A DNA stretch of 64,000 nucleotides from Hyphomicrobiales bacterium (lineage in GTDB: Bacteria > Pseudomonadota > Alphaproteobacteria > Rhizobiales > HXMU1428-3). The stretch covers positions 45,445 to 109,444 of the forward strand of contig JAJFHX010000048.1 in assembly GCA_021775425.1 (NCBI GenBank), written 5' to 3'. The position numbers were made by a program, and so were the translations under genes. Under the pieces are notes generated by a model that made no database searches, was not told where the DNA came from, and saw only the letters and a list, made by a program, of their open reading frames with translations. Shown in pieces: positions 33,855 to 41,382 of the stretch. Numbering within the stretch: position 1 is the stretch's first letter; every line of letters starts with the position of its first letter.

Positions 33855-34820
33855 CTAGTTTCTGTCAGCTGCATAATTAGCCGCAGCCAGCAAAGCGGCA
33901 CCCCGGCCCTCATTATGATGCTCAGTAACCGTAGCAGGAACCGAAGGCACATCGACATAAGTCCAGGCATCACTGTCAGCCAACAGAGTTTTTATCGCTT
34001 TTGCATTCAGCGCATGACCACCACGATAGGATTTATATGAACAAAGCAATGGCGAACCAGCCAGCGCCAGATCACCCACCGCATCAAGCGCTTTATGACG
34101 AACAAACTCATCTTCAAAGCGCAAACCTTCGCGGTTTATAACGGTGTCATTATCAATCGCAACTGTATTTTCAAGCGAAGCTCCAAGTGCCCGCCCGGCA
34201 GCCCACAAACCTTCAACATCTGCCATAAAGCCAAATGTTCTGGCCCGTGCAAGTTCTTCACGGAAAATGCCAGGGTTCATATCAGAACTGAATTTCTGAC
34301 GGCCAATGGCTGGTGTTTCAAAATCAATCTCAACTTCAATCCGAAAACCATTATAAGGCAGCAATTCACCCCAACAGCCATCTTCTTCCACCCGAATAGG
34401 TTTCAAAATCTTGATAAACCGTCTTGGCGCATCAAGTTCGGCAATACCAGCTTCTTCGATCGCTCTGACAAATGGCATCGCACTACCATCCATAATCGGC
34501 ACTTCGCCATTATCAATTTCAACCATCACATTATCAATTGATAAACCGCGAAGAGCAGACATCAGATGCTCTACCGTCGCGACTTCGGCACCGCAGTCAC
34601 TACCAAGAACTGTGCAAAGAGTGAGGTTTTCAATAAAATCGCAATGCGCCTGAATTTCAACATCCCGCCCATCAGAAACGACGAGAAAATTAATACCGCT
34701 ATGCGCGTCAGCCGGATGAAGTGTGATCGAAACAGGAGCCCCGGAATGAACGCCAACCCCGGTCATGACAACAGACTGTTCCAACGTCGTCTGCTTAGCT
34801 CCAACATATGAATTACCCAT
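33855..34820 (-). CDS. lpxC: UDP-3-O-acyl-N-acetylglucosamine deacetylase
   Basis: ATVEHLMSAL, ARARTFGF, FVRHKALDAVGDL, GGHALN. Confidence 0.97.
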   Translation of the reverse strand: MGNSYVGAKQTTLEQSVVMTGVGVHSGAPVSITLHPADAHSGINFLVVSDGRDVEIQAHCDFIENLTLCTVLGSDCGAEVATVEHLMSALRGLSIDNVMVEIDNGEVPIMDGSAMPFVRAIEEAGIAELDAPRRFIKILKPIRVEEDGCWGELLPYNGFRIEVEIDFETPAIGRQKFSSDMNPGIFREELARARTFGFMADVEGLWAAGRALGASLENTVAIDNDTVINREGLRFEDEFVRHKALDAVGDLALAGSPLLCSYKSYRGGHALNAKAIKTLLADSDAWTYVDVPSVPATVTEHHNEGRGAALLAAANYAADRN

Positions 34821-35670: not shown

Positions 35671-38034
35671 TTAGTTTTTTTTCTTCAAAAATGGCGGAAT
35701 ATCAGAAATTTCCTCATCATCATCAATAGAAAGAGGATGCCCCAGTCCTTTTTTGATTTCAATAGTTGGATACCGCTCCTGCGCGGTTTCTGGTCGCGTA
35801 TTTAATGGCGCAGCATCTTCTTCACTTTGCGCTTGCGGCTGATGCTGAGGATGCTGGTTGTAATGTGCCTGCATGTGTTGTTCAAACTCACTGGCAGCAT
35901 AATCTTCTGTTAGTTCACTTTGCTCAGAATGATCAACTTGTTTAAGAAGCTCATCATATGCCGAAGCTTTCTCAACAGAACCAGTCATCCCGGCTCCAAC
36001 ACGTCTTTCCTGATCAGCCACCTGATTATGCTCAACCACCGGGTTATGCCTTGCTGCTGTCTCCACGCGAGGAGGCCGTTGCACAGGCACTTCTGGCGCG
36101 GCAGGTGGCGGCCGTTGACCGTAATAGCTGGTTTCTTCAGACCGCAAATGTTGCCCTTCATCAGAACCGCGTTGATCAGCAACACCCCCGCCGCCAGCAG
36201 CTCCACCAGAAAAATCAGCTGGTCGATGCGCTGGATGTGCAGCCGCTCTTTGCGGTGGCCCAGCAACGAAATCTGGTAGAGGATCAGCAACAGAAGGGGG
36301 TGCTAGAGAAGTAGCAGAGGCAGGCTCAGAGTCCCCGCCTTCTTCAGAACCCTCATTGTCCTGAGATCGGTTGCGTCCGGTAATCCGGTCAAAAAAGCCA
36401 ACCTTTTTCTTTTGCGCCACAATCCCGTGATTGTTTGATGGTGCTTCATAGGCTCTTAACTGTTTTTGCCCTGTGATTGGCAAGTCTTCCATGCTTGGCA
36501 TACGCCGTGTGGGTTGCATAGGCTGGTTTACTCTTTGCGGGGCGCCGGGGACAAATTCACGCCCAGTCGAGCGTCCATCCATCCCACCATCATCATTAAA
36601 AGGCGCGTTGCCAAAACCAGCATCAGCACCGTCATTCATAAAACGCGGCGGTTTTTTTACAATCTGCACATTGCCTTTTTGTTCAGAAACCGTTGTGTCT
36701 GACTTTGGCTGACCCTGGGGCACACCACGACGCCCGAATTCTCCCTGAGGTACTGACGAAGCTGACGCTTTTCCAGCTCCCCCGCCCATATCAACACCGC
36801 CAGGCTGCCTGTTTTGTTGTGGTGATGCATAAACATCCCCCACATTTTTTGCTGCAGGAATGCCTCTCACACCCTGGTTAACAACTCCCTGCCCCTTAGG
36901 TCCATTCGGGTTATTATGTCCACCCTGCTGCATCGGCCCACCGAACCGCGCGGCCCGGCCAACCGGTTCTTCAAGTTGTTGAATGCGCTCATTCAGACCA
37001 AGAGCATTCTCTTCTTCCCGGTTGTCAATTTCCATCCGACGGCGATCGGCCTCAATATGCATGGATTGCGGATGCCCATGGTTCAAACCGGAAGCCACCA
37101 GCGAAACCCGCAAATATCCCTCTAGCTGCTCATCAAATGTAGCGCCAACGATAATATTCGCATTCGGGTCAACTTCTTGTCTAATGCGGCTGGCAACCTC
37201 ATCCACTTCAAATAAAGTCATATCATGCCCACCGGAAATTGAGATCAGCAACCCCTTAGCTCCGGCAAGCGAAATATCATCAATCAGAGGGTTGGAAATA
37301 GCTTCTTCAGCAGCTTTTCTAGCCCGCCCTTCACCATGTGCAACCCCGGTTCCCATCACCGCGGCGCCCATTTCAGTAATCACCGTTTTCACATCTGCGA
37401 AATCAAGATTAATCAACCCTTCTTTCATAATCAGATCAGTGACACAGGCCACACCGGAGTTCAAAACAGAATCAGCCAGACAGAAACTTTCAGCAAACGT
37501 CGTCTGTTCATTCGCCAGACGGAATAAATTCTGGTTCGGAATAACAATCATCGTGTCAACATAATTGCGCAGTTGCTCAATCCCGGCCTCTGCTATACGC
37601 ATGCGCCGCTGACCTTCAAACTGAAAAGGCTTCGTAACAACCGCCACAGTTAAAACGCCAAGATCCTGCGCAATACGTGCTATAACGGGGGCCGCTCCGG
37701 TGCCAGTGCCGCCGCCCATACCGCAGGCGATAAACACCATATGCGCACCAGCCATAAGTTCTTTAACTTCCTCAAGAACTTCTTCGGCAGCACCTTCACC
37801 AATTTCAGGGTTTGAACCGGCCCCAAGGCCTTCCGTCAGATTCGCACCGAGCTGCAAACGAATATCAGCACCAGACATCGAAAGCGCCTGCGCATCAGTG
37901 TTTGCCGCAACAAATTCGACACCATGCAGCCCTGAAGCAATCATATTATTGACTGCATTCCCGCCAGCACCGCCAACGCCCATCACAATAATGCGCGGCT
38001 TCAATTCATGAAAACTATGAACGTTTGATGTCAT
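35671..38034 (-). CDS. ftsZ: Cell division protein FtsZ with an exceptionally long linker (787 aa)
   Basis: [28 protein letters not shown]; C-terminal peptide [11 protein letters not shown]. Confidence 0.97.
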
Positions 38035-38111: not shown

Positions 38112-39464
38112 TTAAAAACTCTCTTTTAGCCATAAACCCATGCGAGACCAGTAACTTCCCCCATGCGCACCGCGCGGCGCTTTCATAGAAAAATCATCCG
38201 CAAGGTCATAAACCTGCAACGCTTCATAAAGCCCAATGGAGCTTGAAAATGCCGGTCCCATCATCTCTGTCGGCAATCCTTCAAGTGCCGGCGGCGCGCC
38301 AATGCGAACCGGTTTGCCAAAAATTTCAGAAGCAAATTCCGTTAATCCGTTCAGCTGACTGCCACCTCCGGTGAGGATCAGACGCTGGCCAGAATGCGCA
38401 CCAAATCCGCTCTTATTAAGGCGCTCCATCACCAGCGAAAGTATATGCTGCACCCGGGGCCTGATGATGTCTGAAAGCTGCGCTGAACTGATTTGCCCTT
38501 CAGACACATGCCCGTCACCAACAATCGAATAGCTGATCGGTTTGTCCCGCTCACCCTCTCGCTCTGCCCCCGCTCCGAACGCCGAGCCATAAAGCACTTT
38601 AATCCGCTCCGCTTCCTGCAAAGGGCAATTTAAAGCCTGGGCAATTTCAAACGAAACCAGGTCACCACCAATGGCAATCGCATCAGAATGAACAAAATAA
38701 CCATTGGCAAACAAAGCCAGCTTTGTCGTCCCGCCGCCAATATCAATCACTGTGGTACCAAGCTCAACCTCGCTTTGGTCAACCACAGCAAGCGCACTGG
38801 CATAAGATGACGCCATAACCCTCGCCGCCCGCAAATGACACCGCTCTAACAGCAAAGCAATATTCTTTAAGGGCGAAACATCCGCCGTAACCGCATGCAG
38901 GTCCAGCTCTAAAAGATCACCAATCATATTGGTTGGGTCCGCAACCCCTGAAGCTTCGTCAAGCGTATAGCCAAGCGGCATAAGATGCAGCACAGCCCGG
39001 CCATTTTCAGCCGCATAATCCCGCCCGGCCACCATCACTTCGTCAATATGGCCCTGCTTAACAGAATTCCCGTCAAGCTGGACACTTGTTGTAAAGTTCA
39101 TGGATTGCAGCCGCCCACAGGAAACGGCAACGACAACATTCTCAACCCTCATGCCAGCCATTTTTTCAGCCTGGCTGACAACATCACGAACTGCCTCTTC
39201 AGCCGCATCAAGATCAACCAGCACACCCGCTTTCATGCCGCGTGCCCGCTGGTGTCCAAAACCGACAATCCTGAGCGAAGCACCAAGCGGTTTACCATGA
39301 AAATCTCTGATCCCCTGGCCTTTATAAACACCCGAACTTTCAGCCGGCAAAGGCATAGCCCCATCCACCCACTCACCAATCAGACAGGTGAATTTAGATG
39401 TGCCAAGATCAATTACCGTGACCCGCGAACCATATTTCGCTGTTTGTTTTTCACGACCAAACAA
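38112..39464 (-). CDS. ftsA: Cell division protein FtsA
   Basis: IDLGTSK, IDIGGGTT, LTGGGSQL; C-terminal amphipathic tail WLKESF. Confidence 0.95.
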   Translation of the reverse strand: MFGREKQTAKYGSRVTVIDLGTSKFTCLIGEWVDGAMPLPAESSGVYKGQGIRDFHGKPLGASLRIVGFGHQRARGMKAGVLVDLDAAEEAVRDVVSQAEKMAGMRVENVVVAVSCGRLQSMNFTTSVQLDGNSVKQGHIDEVMVAGRDYAAENGRAVLHLMPLGYTLDEASGVADPTNMIGDLLELDLHAVTADVSPLKNIALLLERCHLRAARVMASSYASALAVVDQSEVELGTTVIDIGGGTTKLALFANGYFVHSDAIAIGGDLVSFEIAQALNCPLQEAERIKVLYGSAFGAGAEREGERDKPISYSIVGDGHVSEGQISSAQLSDIIRPRVQHILSLVMERLNKSGFGAHSGQRLILTGGGSQLNGLTEFASEIFGKPVRIGAPPALEGLPTEMMGPAFSSSIGLYEALQVYDLADDFSMKAPRGAHGGSYWSRMGLWLKESF

Positions 39465-39481: not shown

Positions 39482-40459
39482 TTAAGTGCCGCTGGAAGGT
39501 TTCAATTGCGGTATAATTTTACTAAGCTCCCGCGAATCAAAATCTTTTTCAGAAGTAAGAACTTTTATATTTTTACTATTTTTAGGCCGCAATGTGACCC
39601 TGTCATCAAGCCGGAGGTCAATCACCGCTAACTCCCGGTTTAAAATATTATGCTGCGCCTGCAGTGATCTTAACCGGTTAAGCGCCACTCTAACGGGCAA
39701 CTCCGGCAAAAATACCTGCAAGCCGTTATGCATCACCAAAGTCCAGCGCCGCTGATCAACCCGGCTAAACCTGACAACAAGCGGCTCAATATCATCAAAG
39801 CTGTTTAATATCTGACGCAGTTCACTCGCCGCATTAGGCGCGCCCTCACCATCAAAAATTGGCAGATCAAGAAAACTGCCAACTTTCGTCTTTTCAATCA
39901 GCTTGCCGACAGCATCAAATACATATGTCCCCTTAACAGTCACAAACCGGCCAACCGGCTCAACCTCTTCAACATAAATATTGATACCATGCGGAAACAC
40001 CCGCTCAACTTCCGCCCGCTTGATCCAGGGTAATTTCTCAATCTTTTTTTTCGCATCAGACGTATTAATAGAAATCAGCGAACTATCCCAGATATTACCC
40101 AGCCTGGCGACAATCTCTTTCTCTTTGGTCCGCTCATGCCCGACAATATGCACTTGCTCTATCGGAAAGCTAGTCAGAGCAATTGCTCTGTTACCAAATG
40201 ATTTTAATTCAGATAGAAACTTGAACTCGTCAGTCATGTGGCGCTGAAACCCCACAGCCACACCAACTGTAACAATGATCAGCCCGCCAAGCCAAAGCGG
40301 CCATTTGCGCCGCCGACGGGATTTTAGTGGTTTAAAACCGGCAGAACTCGGCGCAACCTGAAATTCTTCGGCATATTCATCTTTGACATAACAACCAATA
40401 AAGGGAAGATCGTCTGAAACCCTGTTTTTATCAGAATTCTGACCTTTGCCTTTGCTCAT
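39482..40459 (-). CDS. ftsQ: Cell division protein FtsQ/DivIB
   Basis: Single TM, POTRA (LPWIKRAEVERVFP), VIDLRLDDR; ATGA overlap with the ddl stop. Confidence 0.9.
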   Translation of the reverse strand: MSKGKGQNSDKNRVSDDLPFIGCYVKDEYAEEFQVAPSSAGFKPLKSRRRRKWPLWLGGLIIVTVGVAVGFQRHMTDEFKFLSELKSFGNRAIALTSFPIEQVHIVGHERTKEKEIVARLGNIWDSSLISINTSDAKKKIEKLPWIKRAEVERVFPHGINIYVEEVEPVGRFVTVKGTYVFDAVGKLIEKTKVGSFLDLPIFDGEGAPNAASELRQILNSFDDIEPLVVRFSRVDQRRWTLVMHNGLQVFLPELPVRVALNRLRSLQAQHNILNRELAVIDLRLDDRVTLRPKNSKNIKVLTSEKDFDSRELSKIIPQLKPSSGT

Positions 40460-41382
40460 CGATTGCAAGATGCATCCTCCACCATCCACCGTACCAGCTC
40501 ATTAAAACTCCAGCCGGCACGCTCAGCCATCTCCGGCACCAGCGAAGTCGCTGTCATACCGGGCTGCGTGTTCACTTCAAGGCACACCAGAGTATCCCTA
40601 TGCTCATCATATCGGAAATCTGCCCGGCTCACGCCGCGGCAACCAAGAGCTTTATGCGCCGTTAATGTCCATTTCTGTATGAATTGGTAAATATTTGATG
40701 AAATTTCTGCCGGTATTATATGTTGTGAACCGCCTGGTGCATATTTAGCATCAAAATCATAAAATTCGTGCCCTTTTTGAGGTTTTATCTCCAGCACATC
40801 AAGTGCCCGGTTTCCAAGCACCGCACAGGTCAGTTCTTTTCCTGACACAAACTCTTCAAGCATCATCAGGTCATCTTCGGCACCCGCTGCAAGGATTTCC
40901 TGCCCGGGGGGGGGCTGCTGCATATCTTTGATGATGAAAATACCAAAACTGGAGCCATCAGCCACCGGTTTCAAAACATATGGAGGCACCATCAAATGCC
41001 CCAGTGCCGCCTCACTACGTTTTACAATCTTATCCGCCGCAATCGGCACACCTTCAGAAGCAATGATTTTTTTAGCGATTTTTTTATCCATCGCCATGGA
41101 AGAAGACAGCACACCCGAATGCGTATAAGGAATGTTCAAAACTTCCAATATTCCCTGCATACAGCCATCTTCTCCAAATGGTCCATGCAGCGCATTAAAA
41201 CAGACATCCGGCTTCAGCTCCTCAAGCACAGTCGCAATATTACGCTCAACATCAATTTCAGTGACCTTAAAGCCCTCAGCCCGCAGCGCCTCAGCACAAG
41301 CCTTTCCCGAACTAAGACTGATCTCACGTTCTAAAGACCACCCCCCCATCAGCACCGCTACATGGCTGTCTGCATCAATCAT
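40456..41382 (-). CDS. ddl: D-alanine--D-alanine ligase
   Basis: VLMGGWSLEREISL, NALHGPFGED, CRGVSRADFR, LEVNTQPGMT; ATGA overlap with murB gives start 41382. Confidence 0.96.
   Translation of the reverse strand: MIDADSHVAVLMGGWSLEREISLSSGKACAEALRAEGFKVTEIDVERNIATVLEELKPDVCFNALHGPFGEDGCMQGILEVLNIPYTHSGVLSSSMAMDKKIAKKIIASEGVPIAADKIVKRSEAALGHLMVPPYVLKPVADGSSFGIFIIKDMQQPPPGQEILAAGAEDDLMMLEEFVSGKELTCAVLGNRALDVLEIKPQKGHEFYDFDAKYAPGGSQHIIPAEISSNIYQFIQKWTLTAHKALGCRGVSRADFRYDEHRDTLVCLEVNTQPGMTATSLVPEMAERAGWSFNELVRWMVEDASCNR

What the first reader, a model, noticed from the sequence alone, without database searches (positions are those of the whole stretch)
35671..37090. 787-aa FtsZ with a disordered linker of about 450 aa
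Seen: the GTPase core ends near residue 316 and the conserved tail ([11 protein letters not shown]) is at the very end, leaving about 450 G/P/Q/E/A-rich residues in one open frame. Established: the FtsZ linker controls protofilament bundling and cell-wall enzyme activity in Caulobacter (508 aa); rhizobial and Bartonella FtsZ are under about 600 aa. The linker has short islands recalling rhizobial FtsZ motifs ([10 protein letters not shown]; amphipathic [12 protein letters not shown] near residue 545), then about 225 extra residues including an acidic helix-like block ([10 protein letters not shown]...[10 protein letters not shown]). The tail ends in basic KKKN rather than RRQAN. Inference: a possibly record-length FtsZ with extra partner or membrane-binding modules, or condensate behaviour.
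Basis: partly seen in the sequence, partly recalled or inferred. Interest (0 to 1): 0.72.

Follow-up and report, generated by a model that had tools for sequence, protein, structure and literature searches.

The report
Very long FtsZ linker, not unique
The cell-division protein FtsZ of this uncultured marine-type alphaproteobacterium really does carry a floppy linker of about 450 residues, but all its relatives have long linkers too and a few other bacteria have longer ones, so it is an extreme member of a known pattern and not a record or a new kind of protein.

Summary
Window 35671..38034 (-) is one 787-aa ORF: FtsZ core 1-320, about 450 G/A/P/Q/E/R-rich residues, then [10 protein letters not shown]. 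It is the genome's only FtsZ and lies in ftsQ-ftsA-ftsZ-lpxC-bamD.

The "record length" reading fails.
- All 13 other genomes of the genus, and about 30 metagenomic relatives, have 594-776-aa FtsZ. After start correction the window's is the longest of its clade.
- Unrelated alphaproteobacterial lineages have genuine 810-857-aa FtsZ with 455-510 post-core residues (466 here). One is an 833-aa FtsZ in a species-representative genome.

The linker is built like beads on a string.
- Seven conserved islands keep fixed spacing: RMPSMEDLP to GFFDR is 35 aa in nearly every member where both motifs were found, outgroups included, and ERYPT to DIPPFL is 24-29 aa.
- Two hypervariable spacers (353-453 and 558-750) carry all the length variation.
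- AlphaFold2 gives pLDDT below 50 for most of the linker. Short helices sit at 326-354, 520-529 and 714-726.

Most likely this is an ordinary FtsZ tether whose spacers expanded under weak constraint. Function probably lies in the islands, whose partners are unknown. Extra membrane-binding modules or condensate behaviour remain plausible but untested.

The parts
35671..38034 (-). ftsZ, 787 codons plus stop; the only FtsZ in the genome
   Evidence: ORF. TIGR00065 389 bits against cut-off 295. A single tubulin signature GGGTGTG in the six-frame scan of the genome. One match in G000.
37075..38034 (-). Residues 1-320: short N-terminal peptide plus the GTPase core (Tubulin and FtsZ_C domains)
   Evidence: Pfam 14-174 and 223-317. 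AlphaFold2 fold with pLDDT mostly 75-95, except 169-223 which is below 50. 94% ingroup column identity.
36973..37089 (-). Island 1, residues 316-354: [36 protein letters not shown] charged helix abutting the core; the sequence is clade-specific.
   Evidence: Ingroup identity 0.74-0.82, outgroup match 0.19-0.25. AlphaFold2 helix 326-354, pLDDT 59-74.
36676..36972 (-). Spacer A, residues 355-453: hypervariable G/P/Q-rich disordered spacer
   Evidence: Ingroup identity 0.24, occupancy 0.57. pLDDT below 50. Core to PPRF distance is 70-145 across the clade, and the window has the maximum of 145.
36634..36675 (-). Island 2, residues 454-467: [14 protein letters not shown], clade-conserved
   Evidence: Ingroup identity 0.82, outgroup match 0.31. 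Alignment.
36364..36567 (-). Order-wide module, residues 490-557: [47 protein letters not shown] to GFF spacing is fixed at 35 aa.
   Evidence: Weak TIGR03483 match at 511-576 covering model positions 1-62. Ingroup identity 0.76-0.81, outgroup match 0.33-0.59. 35-aa spacing in clade and outgroups. Helix 520-529 at pLDDT about 76 and a short helix 548-551.
35785..36363 (-). Spacer B, residues 558-750: hypervariable disordered spacer. Residues 592-704 (35923-36261) match no relative.
   Evidence: Ingroup identity 0.24, occupancy 0.58. GFF to RYPT distance is 86-241 across the clade and 208 here. No relative matches residues 592-704 in any frame.
35857..35895 (-). Residues 714-726, (S)[11 protein letters not shown]: a subclade-specific helical islet inside spacer B, equivalent to EYDLSMEEHY in relatives
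   Evidence: Motif present only in the window's subclade, 14 of 32 ingroup proteins. AlphaFold2 helix 714-726, pLDDT 62-68.
35755..35784 (-). Island, residues 751-760: [10 protein letters not shown]. Clade-specific, 24-29 aa upstream of the C-terminal peptide.
   Evidence: Ingroup identity 0.74, outgroup match 0.08. Fixed spacing to the CTP. Found nowhere else in the genome.
35674..35724 (-). Residues 771-787: acidic run plus the conserved C-terminal peptide [10 protein letters not shown] (clade variant of LEIPAFLRRQAN)
   Evidence: tails of clade and outgroups. Ingroup identity 0.82. Short helix 781-783.
38112..39464 (-). ftsA, immediately upstream; the expected membrane anchor that binds the FtsZ C-terminal peptide
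   Evidence: TIGR01174 ftsA 303.6 bits against cut-off 175.85.
39482..40489 (-). ftsQ-like gene upstream of ftsA
   Evidence: Weak FtsQ match, 26 bits, well below the cut-off. The call rests mainly on its position in the dcw order.
33855..34820 (-). lpxC downstream of ftsZ
   Evidence: TIGR00325 315.8 bits against cut-off 187.

Best explanation
This is the single, canonical dcw-cluster FtsZ of an uncultured Hyphomicrobiales genus.

Architecture:
- Residues 1-320 are the polymerising GTPase core.
- Residues 771-787 are the conserved C-terminal peptide, which docks on FtsA (encoded next door) and probably on other anchors.

The linker is organised as beads on a string:
- a charged helix abutting the core (326-354);
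- a module with fixed inner spacing: [12 protein letters not shown], then 43-52 aa, then [10 protein letters not shown], then 35 aa, then KKKVGFFDR;
- a second module: ERYPTIE, then 24-29 aa, then DIPPFLK;
- two hypervariable, indel-prone spacers (353-453 and 558-750) between these.

The spacers account for all the length variation in the clade (594-787 aa). They most likely expanded under weak constraint and not for a new function.

How it works:
- Inferred from Caulobacter, Agrobacterium, B. subtilis and E. coli work: the linker acts as a flexible tether between treadmilling protofilaments and the membrane, limits lateral bundling, and tunes turnover and downstream cell-wall synthesis.
- Inferred from their conservation: the islands are short linear motifs for partners or self-association.

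Shown here: the architecture, conservation pattern, predicted disorder, clade-wide distribution and non-uniqueness. Inferred: all the functional steps.
For: - Identity and context. Single copy.
- Clade-wide long FtsZ: 13 of 13 same-genus genomes; true lengths 635-787; 32 proteins, 594-787 after start correction.
- Islands and spacers. Fixed inner spacing against variable spacers.
- Disorder: AlphaFold2 pLDDT below 50 over most of 355-776, with short helices only at the islands and at 714-726. Composition, FCR 0.24, NCPR -0.03 and kappa about 0.20, inside the usual FtsZ range of 0.13-0.36 (range).
- Tolerance of linker length: E. coli FtsZ with 25-250-aa linkers keeps its ring diameter, treadmilling velocity and GTP hydrolysis rate, and linker length does not correlate with cell width in 4,603 species.
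- Linker roles in Caulobacter and Agrobacterium.
- Independent expansions elsewhere share only the CTP.
Against:
- Seven islands are strongly conserved, three of them clade-specific. This is more structure than a 'mere tether' needs, so part of the linker may have specific, unknown functions.
- The long forms are kept across most of the clade, and the shortest (594-619 aa) are the basal members. This could also mean directional selection for length.
- 'Weak constraint on spacers' is inferred from low identity and gappy alignment, not from a formal selection test.
Confidence: 0.78

Rival explanations
1. The conserved islands are dedicated docking sites or a built-in membrane anchor. Candidates are the clade-specific helix 326-354, [19 protein letters not shown], and the order-wide RMPSMEDLP-35-KKKVGFFDR module. 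The basic-hydrophobic [13 protein letters not shown] segment might bind membrane directly, like a MinD-type amphipathic peptide. On this reading the linker is a multivalent hub as well as a tether.
For: - Island identity is 0.74-0.82 inside spacers of 0.24 identity.
- Spacing is invariant: 35 aa from RMP to GFF, also in outgroups, and 24-29 aa from ERYPT to the CTP.
- AlphaFold2 places its only confident linker elements at the islands.
- Direct membrane binding by FtsZ amphipathic segments has precedents: Mycoplasma FtsZ, with chloroplast FtsZ1 cited there.
- Oomycete mitochondrial FtsZ and other FtsZ end in GLFGRFFSL or PAFVRKLFKK-type peptides.
Against: - The Caulobacter literature states that no binding partner of the linker is known.
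- The GFF segment has only a moderate hydrophobic moment (0.41-0.48), is internal, and is predicted as a 4-residue helix at pLDDT about 50.
- FtsA and a normal CTP are present, so no extra anchor is needed.
- No other protein in the genome carries these peptides, which could otherwise have hinted at a shared receptor.
Confidence: 0.3
2. The extreme length is itself adaptive. A 450-aa disordered linker would promote FtsZ condensates (storage or sequestration between divisions in a slow-growing, possibly polar-growing or budding Hyphomicrobiales bacterium), or extend the reach between the Z-ring and the membrane.
For: [quoted passage not shown] Those authors propose this is general for alphaproteobacterial long linkers.
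- Long forms are retained across most of the clade, and its earliest-branching members are the shortest.
Against: - Length varies continuously from 594 to 787 aa within one genus-level clade, with hypervariable sequence. This looks like drift more than an optimum.
- Linker length does not track cell width, and E. coli tolerates 25-250-aa linkers in vitro.
- Nothing is known of this organism's morphology or growth.
- No condensate predictor or assay was available here.
Confidence: 0.2
3. Artefact: the long frame results from misassembly, a compensated frameshift or a chimeric MAG contig, and the real protein is shorter.
For: - The genome is a 50-contig MAG at 94% completeness.
- Residues 592-704 match no relative.
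- Reads could not be examined.
Against: - The same architecture, with the in-frame CTP, occurs in more than 30 independently assembled relatives. These include contigs of 0.4-3.1 Mb and a record labelled as a chromosome.
- Islands on both sides of the unique stretch are in frame.
- No relative's linker matches any other frame at a significant E-value.
- The in-frame GC1>GC3 pattern is strong, and the alternative frames hold 10-43 stops.
- No repeats are present that could mislead an assembler.
Confidence: 0.02

Closest known systems
Agrobacterium tumefaciens FtsZ_AT (about 240-aa linker) and Caulobacter crescentus FtsZ (about 170-aa linker)
   Same: - Canonical dcw-cluster alphaproteobacterial FtsZ: GTPase core, long disordered linker, C-terminal peptide binding FtsA.
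- In those species the linker regulates bundling, turnover, cell-wall metabolism and condensate formation.
- Other Hyphomicrobiales FtsZ share the RMP..EDxP and GFFxR islands.
   Different: - The linker here is about 1.9 times the A. tumefaciens one and about 2.6 times the Caulobacter one.
- Three additional clade-specific islands are present.
- The tail is DIPPFLK(K/E)K and not LEIPAFLRRQAN.
- The N-terminal peptide VH(S/N)FHEL(K/R)PR departs from the PDITELKPR that is described as invariant in canonical Hyphomicrobiales FtsZ.
Other very long-linker FtsZ: 810-857-aa proteins from a Kiloniellales MAG and other alphaproteobacterial MAGs (P0135-P0149, P0158-P0162, P0235), and the 833-aa FtsZ of genome G454
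   Same: Core at the N-terminus, 455-510 post-core residues, a recognisable C-terminal peptide and low-complexity disordered composition.
   Different: They share none of the window's linker islands and have no significant linker similarity, so the expansions are independent. For example, the G454 linker is Q-rich.
NCBIfam TIGR03483, FtsZ_alphas_C (alphaproteobacterial C-terminal extension)
   Same: Residues 511-576 align to model positions 1-62, which cover the RMPSMEDLP...GFFDR module.
   Different: - The score is 13.8 bits against a cut-off of 62.95.
- The second half of the model (variable part plus LEIPAFLRRQAN) is separated from the first by the 193-aa spacer B and has a divergent CTP.
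- The model is narrow: none of 81 class-wide genomes reached its cut-off.
FtsZ with intrinsic membrane-binding amphipathic segments (Mycoplasma genitalium C-terminal helix; chloroplast FtsZ1)
   Same: A basic-hydrophobic peptide ([13 protein letters not shown]) resembles MinD-type membrane-targeting peptides.
   Different: Here the peptide is internal, only weakly amphipathic and untested. The protein keeps a canonical CTP and an adjacent ftsA, whereas the Mycoplasma group lacks the FtsA-binding peptide.

Membership tests
FtsZ (TIGR00065 equivalog; Pfam Tubulin plus FtsZ_C) | Whole-protein score above the curated cut-off of the equivalog model | tested here: met
   389.2 bits against 295.2. 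Pfam PF00091 at 164 bits and PF12327 at 118 bits.
FtsZ (TIGR00065 equivalog; Pfam Tubulin plus FtsZ_C) | Tubulin signature GGGTG(T/S)G and the T7 synergy-loop motif NxDxxD | tested here: met
   GGGTGTG at 107-113. NLDFAD at 209-214 is invariant in the alignment.
FtsZ (TIGR00065 equivalog; Pfam Tubulin plus FtsZ_C) | Canonical dcw position after ftsQ-ftsA, and the only copy in the genome | tested here: met
   ftsA TIGR01174 at 303.6 bits immediately upstream, with lpxC and bamD downstream. One FtsZ in G000.
FtsZ (TIGR00065 equivalog; Pfam Tubulin plus FtsZ_C) | Conserved C-terminal peptide ((D/E)-(I/L)-P-x-F-L-(R/K)) at the extreme C-terminus | tested here: met
   DIPPFLK at 778-784. Clade-wide variant DIPPFL(K/R).
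FtsZ (TIGR00065 equivalog; Pfam Tubulin plus FtsZ_C) | GTP-dependent polymerisation and Z-ring formation | not testable with these tools
   Needs purified protein or in vivo imaging.
TIGR03483 FtsZ_alphas_C (alphaproteobacterial C-terminal extension) | Score above the curated cut-off (62.95 bits) over the 121-position model | tested here: not met
   13.8 bits, model positions 1-62 only. The model is narrow: 0 of 81 class-wide genomes were over the cut-off.
Intrinsically disordered FtsZ C-terminal linker (CTL) | Lies between the core and the CTP, has low sequence conservation and is predicted disordered | tested here: met
   pLDDT below 50 over most of 355-776. Spacer identity 0.24. Disorder-type composition. 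Conserved islands are interspersed.
Intrinsically disordered FtsZ C-terminal linker (CTL) | Charge patterning (kappa) within the range seen in FtsZ tails (about 0.13-0.36) | tested here: met
   Kappa about 0.20 for the linker and 0.22 for the tail, using my own approximate implementation.
FtsZ with an intrinsic membrane-targeting amphipathic helix | A terminal amphipathic helix that binds membrane, typically replacing the FtsA-binding peptide | tested here: inconclusive
   The internal [13 protein letters not shown] has a hydrophobic moment of 0.41-0.48 and a 4-residue predicted helix at pLDDT about 50. The CTP and ftsA are retained. Binding is not testable here.

The most novel reading that the evidence does not exclude
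The FtsZ linker of this Hyphomicrobiales clade may be a modular docking platform as well as a passive tether. The order-wide RMPSMEDLP-35-KKKVGFFDR module and the clade-specific [19 protein letters not shown] and 326-354 helix islands would each bind a defined partner, or the membrane in the case of the GFF peptide. These would be the first sequence-specific binding sites described inside an FtsZ linker. The expandable spacers would tune reach or condensate formation.
Probability: 0.3. Interest if true: 0.55.

Novelty: new member of a known kind. Interest (0 to 1): 0.3.

Why it matters
- FtsZ linkers are usually treated as sequence-agnostic entropic springs with no known partners. This clade offers a natural series: one genus-level lineage with linkers of about 270 to 450 residues, where length varies only in two spacers while seven islands keep exact spacing.
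- That makes it a ready-made comparative data set for separating the effects of linker length from those of linker motifs, and for testing the 2026 proposal that long alphaproteobacterial linkers drive FtsZ condensates.
- By itself the window protein changes no concept. It is neither unique nor the longest.

Tried and rejected
I used frame, codon and relatives-based checks instead.
2. The 884-1114-aa 'open frames' at ftsZ in other Hyphomicrobiales genomes looked like longer FtsZ. They are upstream read-through in high-GC DNA, and the true proteins are 563-635 aa. The same applies to the 818-aa Caenispirillum entry and others with the tubulin signature at residue 230-420.
3. Repeat-driven expansion or assembly collapse: only a trivial 18-nt two-copy repeat and chance-level dispersed repeats were found.
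4. A hidden domain in the linker: Pfam and NCBIfam at E up to 0.1 give nothing except the weak TIGR03483 match.
5. Shared origin of long linkers across lineages: no shared islands and no significant similarity.
6. CTP-like or island peptides elsewhere in the genome (possible competitors or mimics): none found.
7. Homology between the oomycete mitochondrial FtsZ tail (GLFGRFFSL) and the RMP-35-GFF module: the RMP part is absent there, so the resemblance is only superficial.
8. Earlier scan notes on FtsZ concern N-terminal extensions coupled to ParA in actinobacteria and have no bearing here. No look-alike stretch has been noted before.
9. MipZ search: the Pfam model hits every control genome through its P-loop, so it is uninformative.
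Full report
**What is there.** Window 35671..38034 on the minus strand is a single 787-codon ORF with an ATG start.
- Pfam finds Tubulin (14-174) and FtsZ_C (223-317).
- The NCBIfam equivalog TIGR00065 scores 389 bits against a cut-off of 295.
- The neighbours are ftsA (TIGR01174, 304 bits) and an ftsQ-like gene upstream, with lpxC and bamD downstream. This is the canonical end of the dcw cluster.
- The 3.19-Mb, 50-contig, 94%-complete genome (GC 46.6%) holds only this one FtsZ.
- The finding's coordinates (35671-37090) correspond to residue ~316 through the stop codon.

**Check of the observation.**
- The core ends at about 316-320; the last AlphaFold2 strand is 307-315.
- [10 protein letters not shown] is at 510-519, [14 protein letters not shown] at 542-555, [10 protein letters not shown] at 692-701, [15 protein letters not shown] at 715-729 and [17 protein letters not shown] at 771-787.
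- The linker (321-770) is G/A/P/Q/E/R-rich, with FCR 0.24, NCPR -0.03 and kappa about 0.20.
- The frame is not a chance opening. The other five frames of the linker contain 10-43 stops, GC1 far exceeds GC3 in frame through both spacers, and the conserved C-terminal peptide is in frame.
- There are no meaningful DNA repeats.
More than 30 independently assembled relatives have the same architecture, and no relative's linker matches the window in another frame.

**Who else has it.** The organism belongs to a genus-level group of uncultured Hyphomicrobiales MAGs. Their submitters label them variously as Hyphomicrobiales bacterium, Methyloligella sp. or Rhodomicrobium sp..
- All 13 other genomes of the genus carry long FtsZ.
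- True, start-corrected lengths of the complete genus copies are 776, 765, 765, 756, 749, 740, 662, 636 and 635 aa.
- Thirty-one metagenomic relatives extend the range to 594-776 aa. The window protein is the longest of its clade by about 11 residues.
- Outside the genus, a 401-genome sample of the order showed open frames of 884-1114 aa. These are upstream read-through in high-GC DNA; the real proteins are 563-635 aa and end in LEIPAFLRRQAN.

**Is it a record? No.**
- I searched 5.8 billion proteins with the core alone, with the query length padded so that only proteins of 790 aa or more were candidates. This gave 337 hits.
- Many are fusions, miscalled starts or N-terminally extended forms. 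A set have the core at the N-terminus and a proper C-terminal peptide, with 455-510 post-core residues against 466 here. These are P0135 (834 aa), P0138 (831 aa, Kiloniellales MAG), P0142 (857 aa), P0144, P0146, P0148, P0160-P0162 and P0235.
- I confirmed one directly in DNA. Genome G454, a species representative from another alphaproteobacterial family, encodes an 833-aa FtsZ with a 502-residue Q-rich post-core region.
- These proteins share none of the window's linker motifs, so long linkers arose several times independently.
- The literature already gives linkers of 13-433 aa in 4,603 cultured species, with Bacteroidota peaking near 295 aa (Kojic, Megrian and Loose, bioRxiv 10.1101/2025.11.25.690400).

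**Anatomy of the linker.** Column conservation over 32 clade members, together with the alignment, resolves seven islands:
- 316-352: HPx[19 protein letters not shown]
- 454-467: GNVQIVNKPPRFM
- 490-502: GREFVxGAPQ
- 512-532: [18 protein letters not shown]
- 541-557: QKKKxGFFxRLTGRN
- 751-760: ERYPTxE
- 774-784: the C-terminal peptide

Island identity is 0.74-0.82. The two long spacers, 353-453 and 558-750, have identity 0.24 and occupancy about 0.57.

Distances between motifs are telling.
- RMP to GFF is 35 residues in all but one member where both motifs were found (37 in P0014), outgroups included.
- PPRF to RMP is 43-52 in all but two members.
- ERYPT to DIPPFL is 24-29.
- By contrast, core to PPRF ranges 70-145 (the window has the maximum) and GFF to ERYPT ranges 86-241 (208 here).
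- In outgroups GFF to CTP is only 80-86.
- Residues 592-704 of the window protein match no relative at all.

AlphaFold2 on a 45-sequence alignment gives a folded core and pLDDT below 50 for most of 355-776. Helices are predicted at 326-354 (pLDDT 59-74), 520-529 (about 76), 548-551, 714-726 (62-68) and in the terminal peptide.

The 490-557 module corresponds to the first half of TIGR03483 (FtsZ_alphas_C), but the protein scores 13.8 bits against a cut-off of 62.95. That model is narrow in any case: 0 of 81 class-wide genomes passed it.

**How it most likely works.**

Established elsewhere:
- The FtsZ linker tethers protofilaments to membrane anchors through the C-terminal peptide.
- It limits lateral bundling and is needed for proper cell-wall remodelling in Caulobacter.
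- In vitro, E. coli FtsZ with 25-250-aa linkers keeps its ring diameter, treadmilling velocity and GTP hydrolysis rate.
- No linker-binding partner is known.

Inference for this protein:
- The two spacers are entropic tether that has grown by indels under weak constraint. This would explain the continuous 594-787-aa range and the hypervariable sequence.
- The islands are the selected parts and probably act as short linear motifs for partners or self-association.
- From simple polymer estimates (my own calculation, not a tool result), about 450 disordered residues have a contour length near 165 nm and an r.m.s. end-to-end distance of roughly 12-20 nm.
- Kappa of about 0.20 is typical of FtsZ tails, so nothing can be inferred about cell width.

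**Rivals.**
1. The islands are true docking or membrane-binding modules. The basic-hydrophobic [13 protein letters not shown] recalls MinD-type membrane peptides. Precedents for direct membrane binding by FtsZ exist (Mycoplasma; chloroplast FtsZ1 cited there). However, its hydrophobic moment is moderate, it is internal, and FtsA plus a normal CTP are present.
2. Length is adaptive, for example for condensates. A. tumefaciens FtsZ forms condensates, and truncating its ~240-aa linker to 50 aa reduces focus formation (mBio 2026, PMC13170164). The window's linker is nearly twice as long, but this is extrapolation.
3. Assembly artefact. This is very unlikely for the reasons given above.

**Comparison with the known, and verdict.**
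- By every testable criterion the protein is a member of the FtsZ family.
- It is a divergent, sub-threshold relative of the rhizobial C-terminal extension family.
- It differs from characterised alphaproteobacterial FtsZ in four ways: linker length (about 1.9 times that of A. tumefaciens), three clade-specific islands, a DIPPFLK-type tail, and an N-terminal peptide that departs from the PDITELKPR reported as invariant in canonical Hyphomicrobiales FtsZ.
- It is a new, extreme member of a known kind. It is neither unique nor a record.
- Its main value is as part of a natural length series with fixed motifs, which could be used to separate length effects from motif effects in FtsZ linkers.

Noticed in passing
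Proteins P0183-P0215 (1090-1186 aa), P0227-P0240 (940-1115 aa) and P0222/P0223/P0226 (about 820 aa): A large metagenomic family of FtsZ has the GTPase core preceded by an N-terminal extension of about 350-680 aa (tubulin signature at residue 450-790). Their tails fuse a CTP-like peptide to a basic amphipathic end (GGLPAFVRKLFKK, DLPSFVKRLFGGKKKD). Only the two FtsZ Pfam domains are on record for them.
   Followed up: no
P0145, P0151, P0152, P0154, P0159 (oomycete FtsZ): Oomycete FtsZ proteins (presumably mitochondrial) have a short linker and end in KGLFGRFFSL or GFFGRLFSL in place of the bacterial CTP. This superficially resembles the alphaproteobacterial internal KKKxGFFxR(L/I) island, but the RMP..EDLP partner motif is absent.
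   Followed up: partly
G454:C4, about 1218500-1221000 (locus L102; identical in length to P0160): A species-representative alphaproteobacterial genome (about 2.3 Mb; the locus is 41% GC) encodes a genuine 833-aa FtsZ. Its 502-residue post-core region is strongly Q-rich (QQPTQQQ-type runs). This is longer than the window's protein and unrelated in linker sequence.
   Followed up: partly
Loci L093-L098, L030, L042, L080: In high-GC Hyphomicrobiales genomes the frame upstream of ftsZ stays open for 300-520 codons. 'Open frame' lengths of 880-1114 aa, and some database entries (for example the 818-aa Caenispirillum FtsZ), therefore overstate FtsZ length. The true starts give 563-607 aa.
   Followed up: yes
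Window 38005-38034 (residues 1-10 of FtsZ) and the clade alignment: The clade's N-terminal peptide is M(T/S)SNVH(S/N)FHEL(K/R)PR. It is two residues shorter than, and lacks, the PD(I/L)TELKPR motif that a 2026 G3 paper describes as invariant in canonical Hyphomicrobiales FtsZ.
   Followed up: partly
Whole genome G000: No MinC (PF03775) or ZapA (PF05164) match was found in this 94%-complete genome. The MipZ Pfam model gave only partial P-loop matches and also hit all control genomes, so it is uninformative. How the Z-ring is positioned in this lineage remains open.
   Followed up: partly
Window 38112-39464 (ftsA): The FtsA model aligns only from residue 62 of the 450-aa ORF (model position 23). 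The N-terminal region, from a TTG start, therefore carries an insertion or divergent segment of about 40 residues (…GEWVDGAMPLPAESSGVYKGQGIRDFHGKPLGASLR…).
   Followed up: no
Locus L026 (JBNOAI010000002.1, labelled Leptospira interrogans strain LS0056): A contig labelled Leptospira interrogans encodes a 575-aa FtsZ that aligns to window residues 10-558 at 50% identity. Its tail is unusual (…DFTDFSRKGRGRQ).
   Followed up: no
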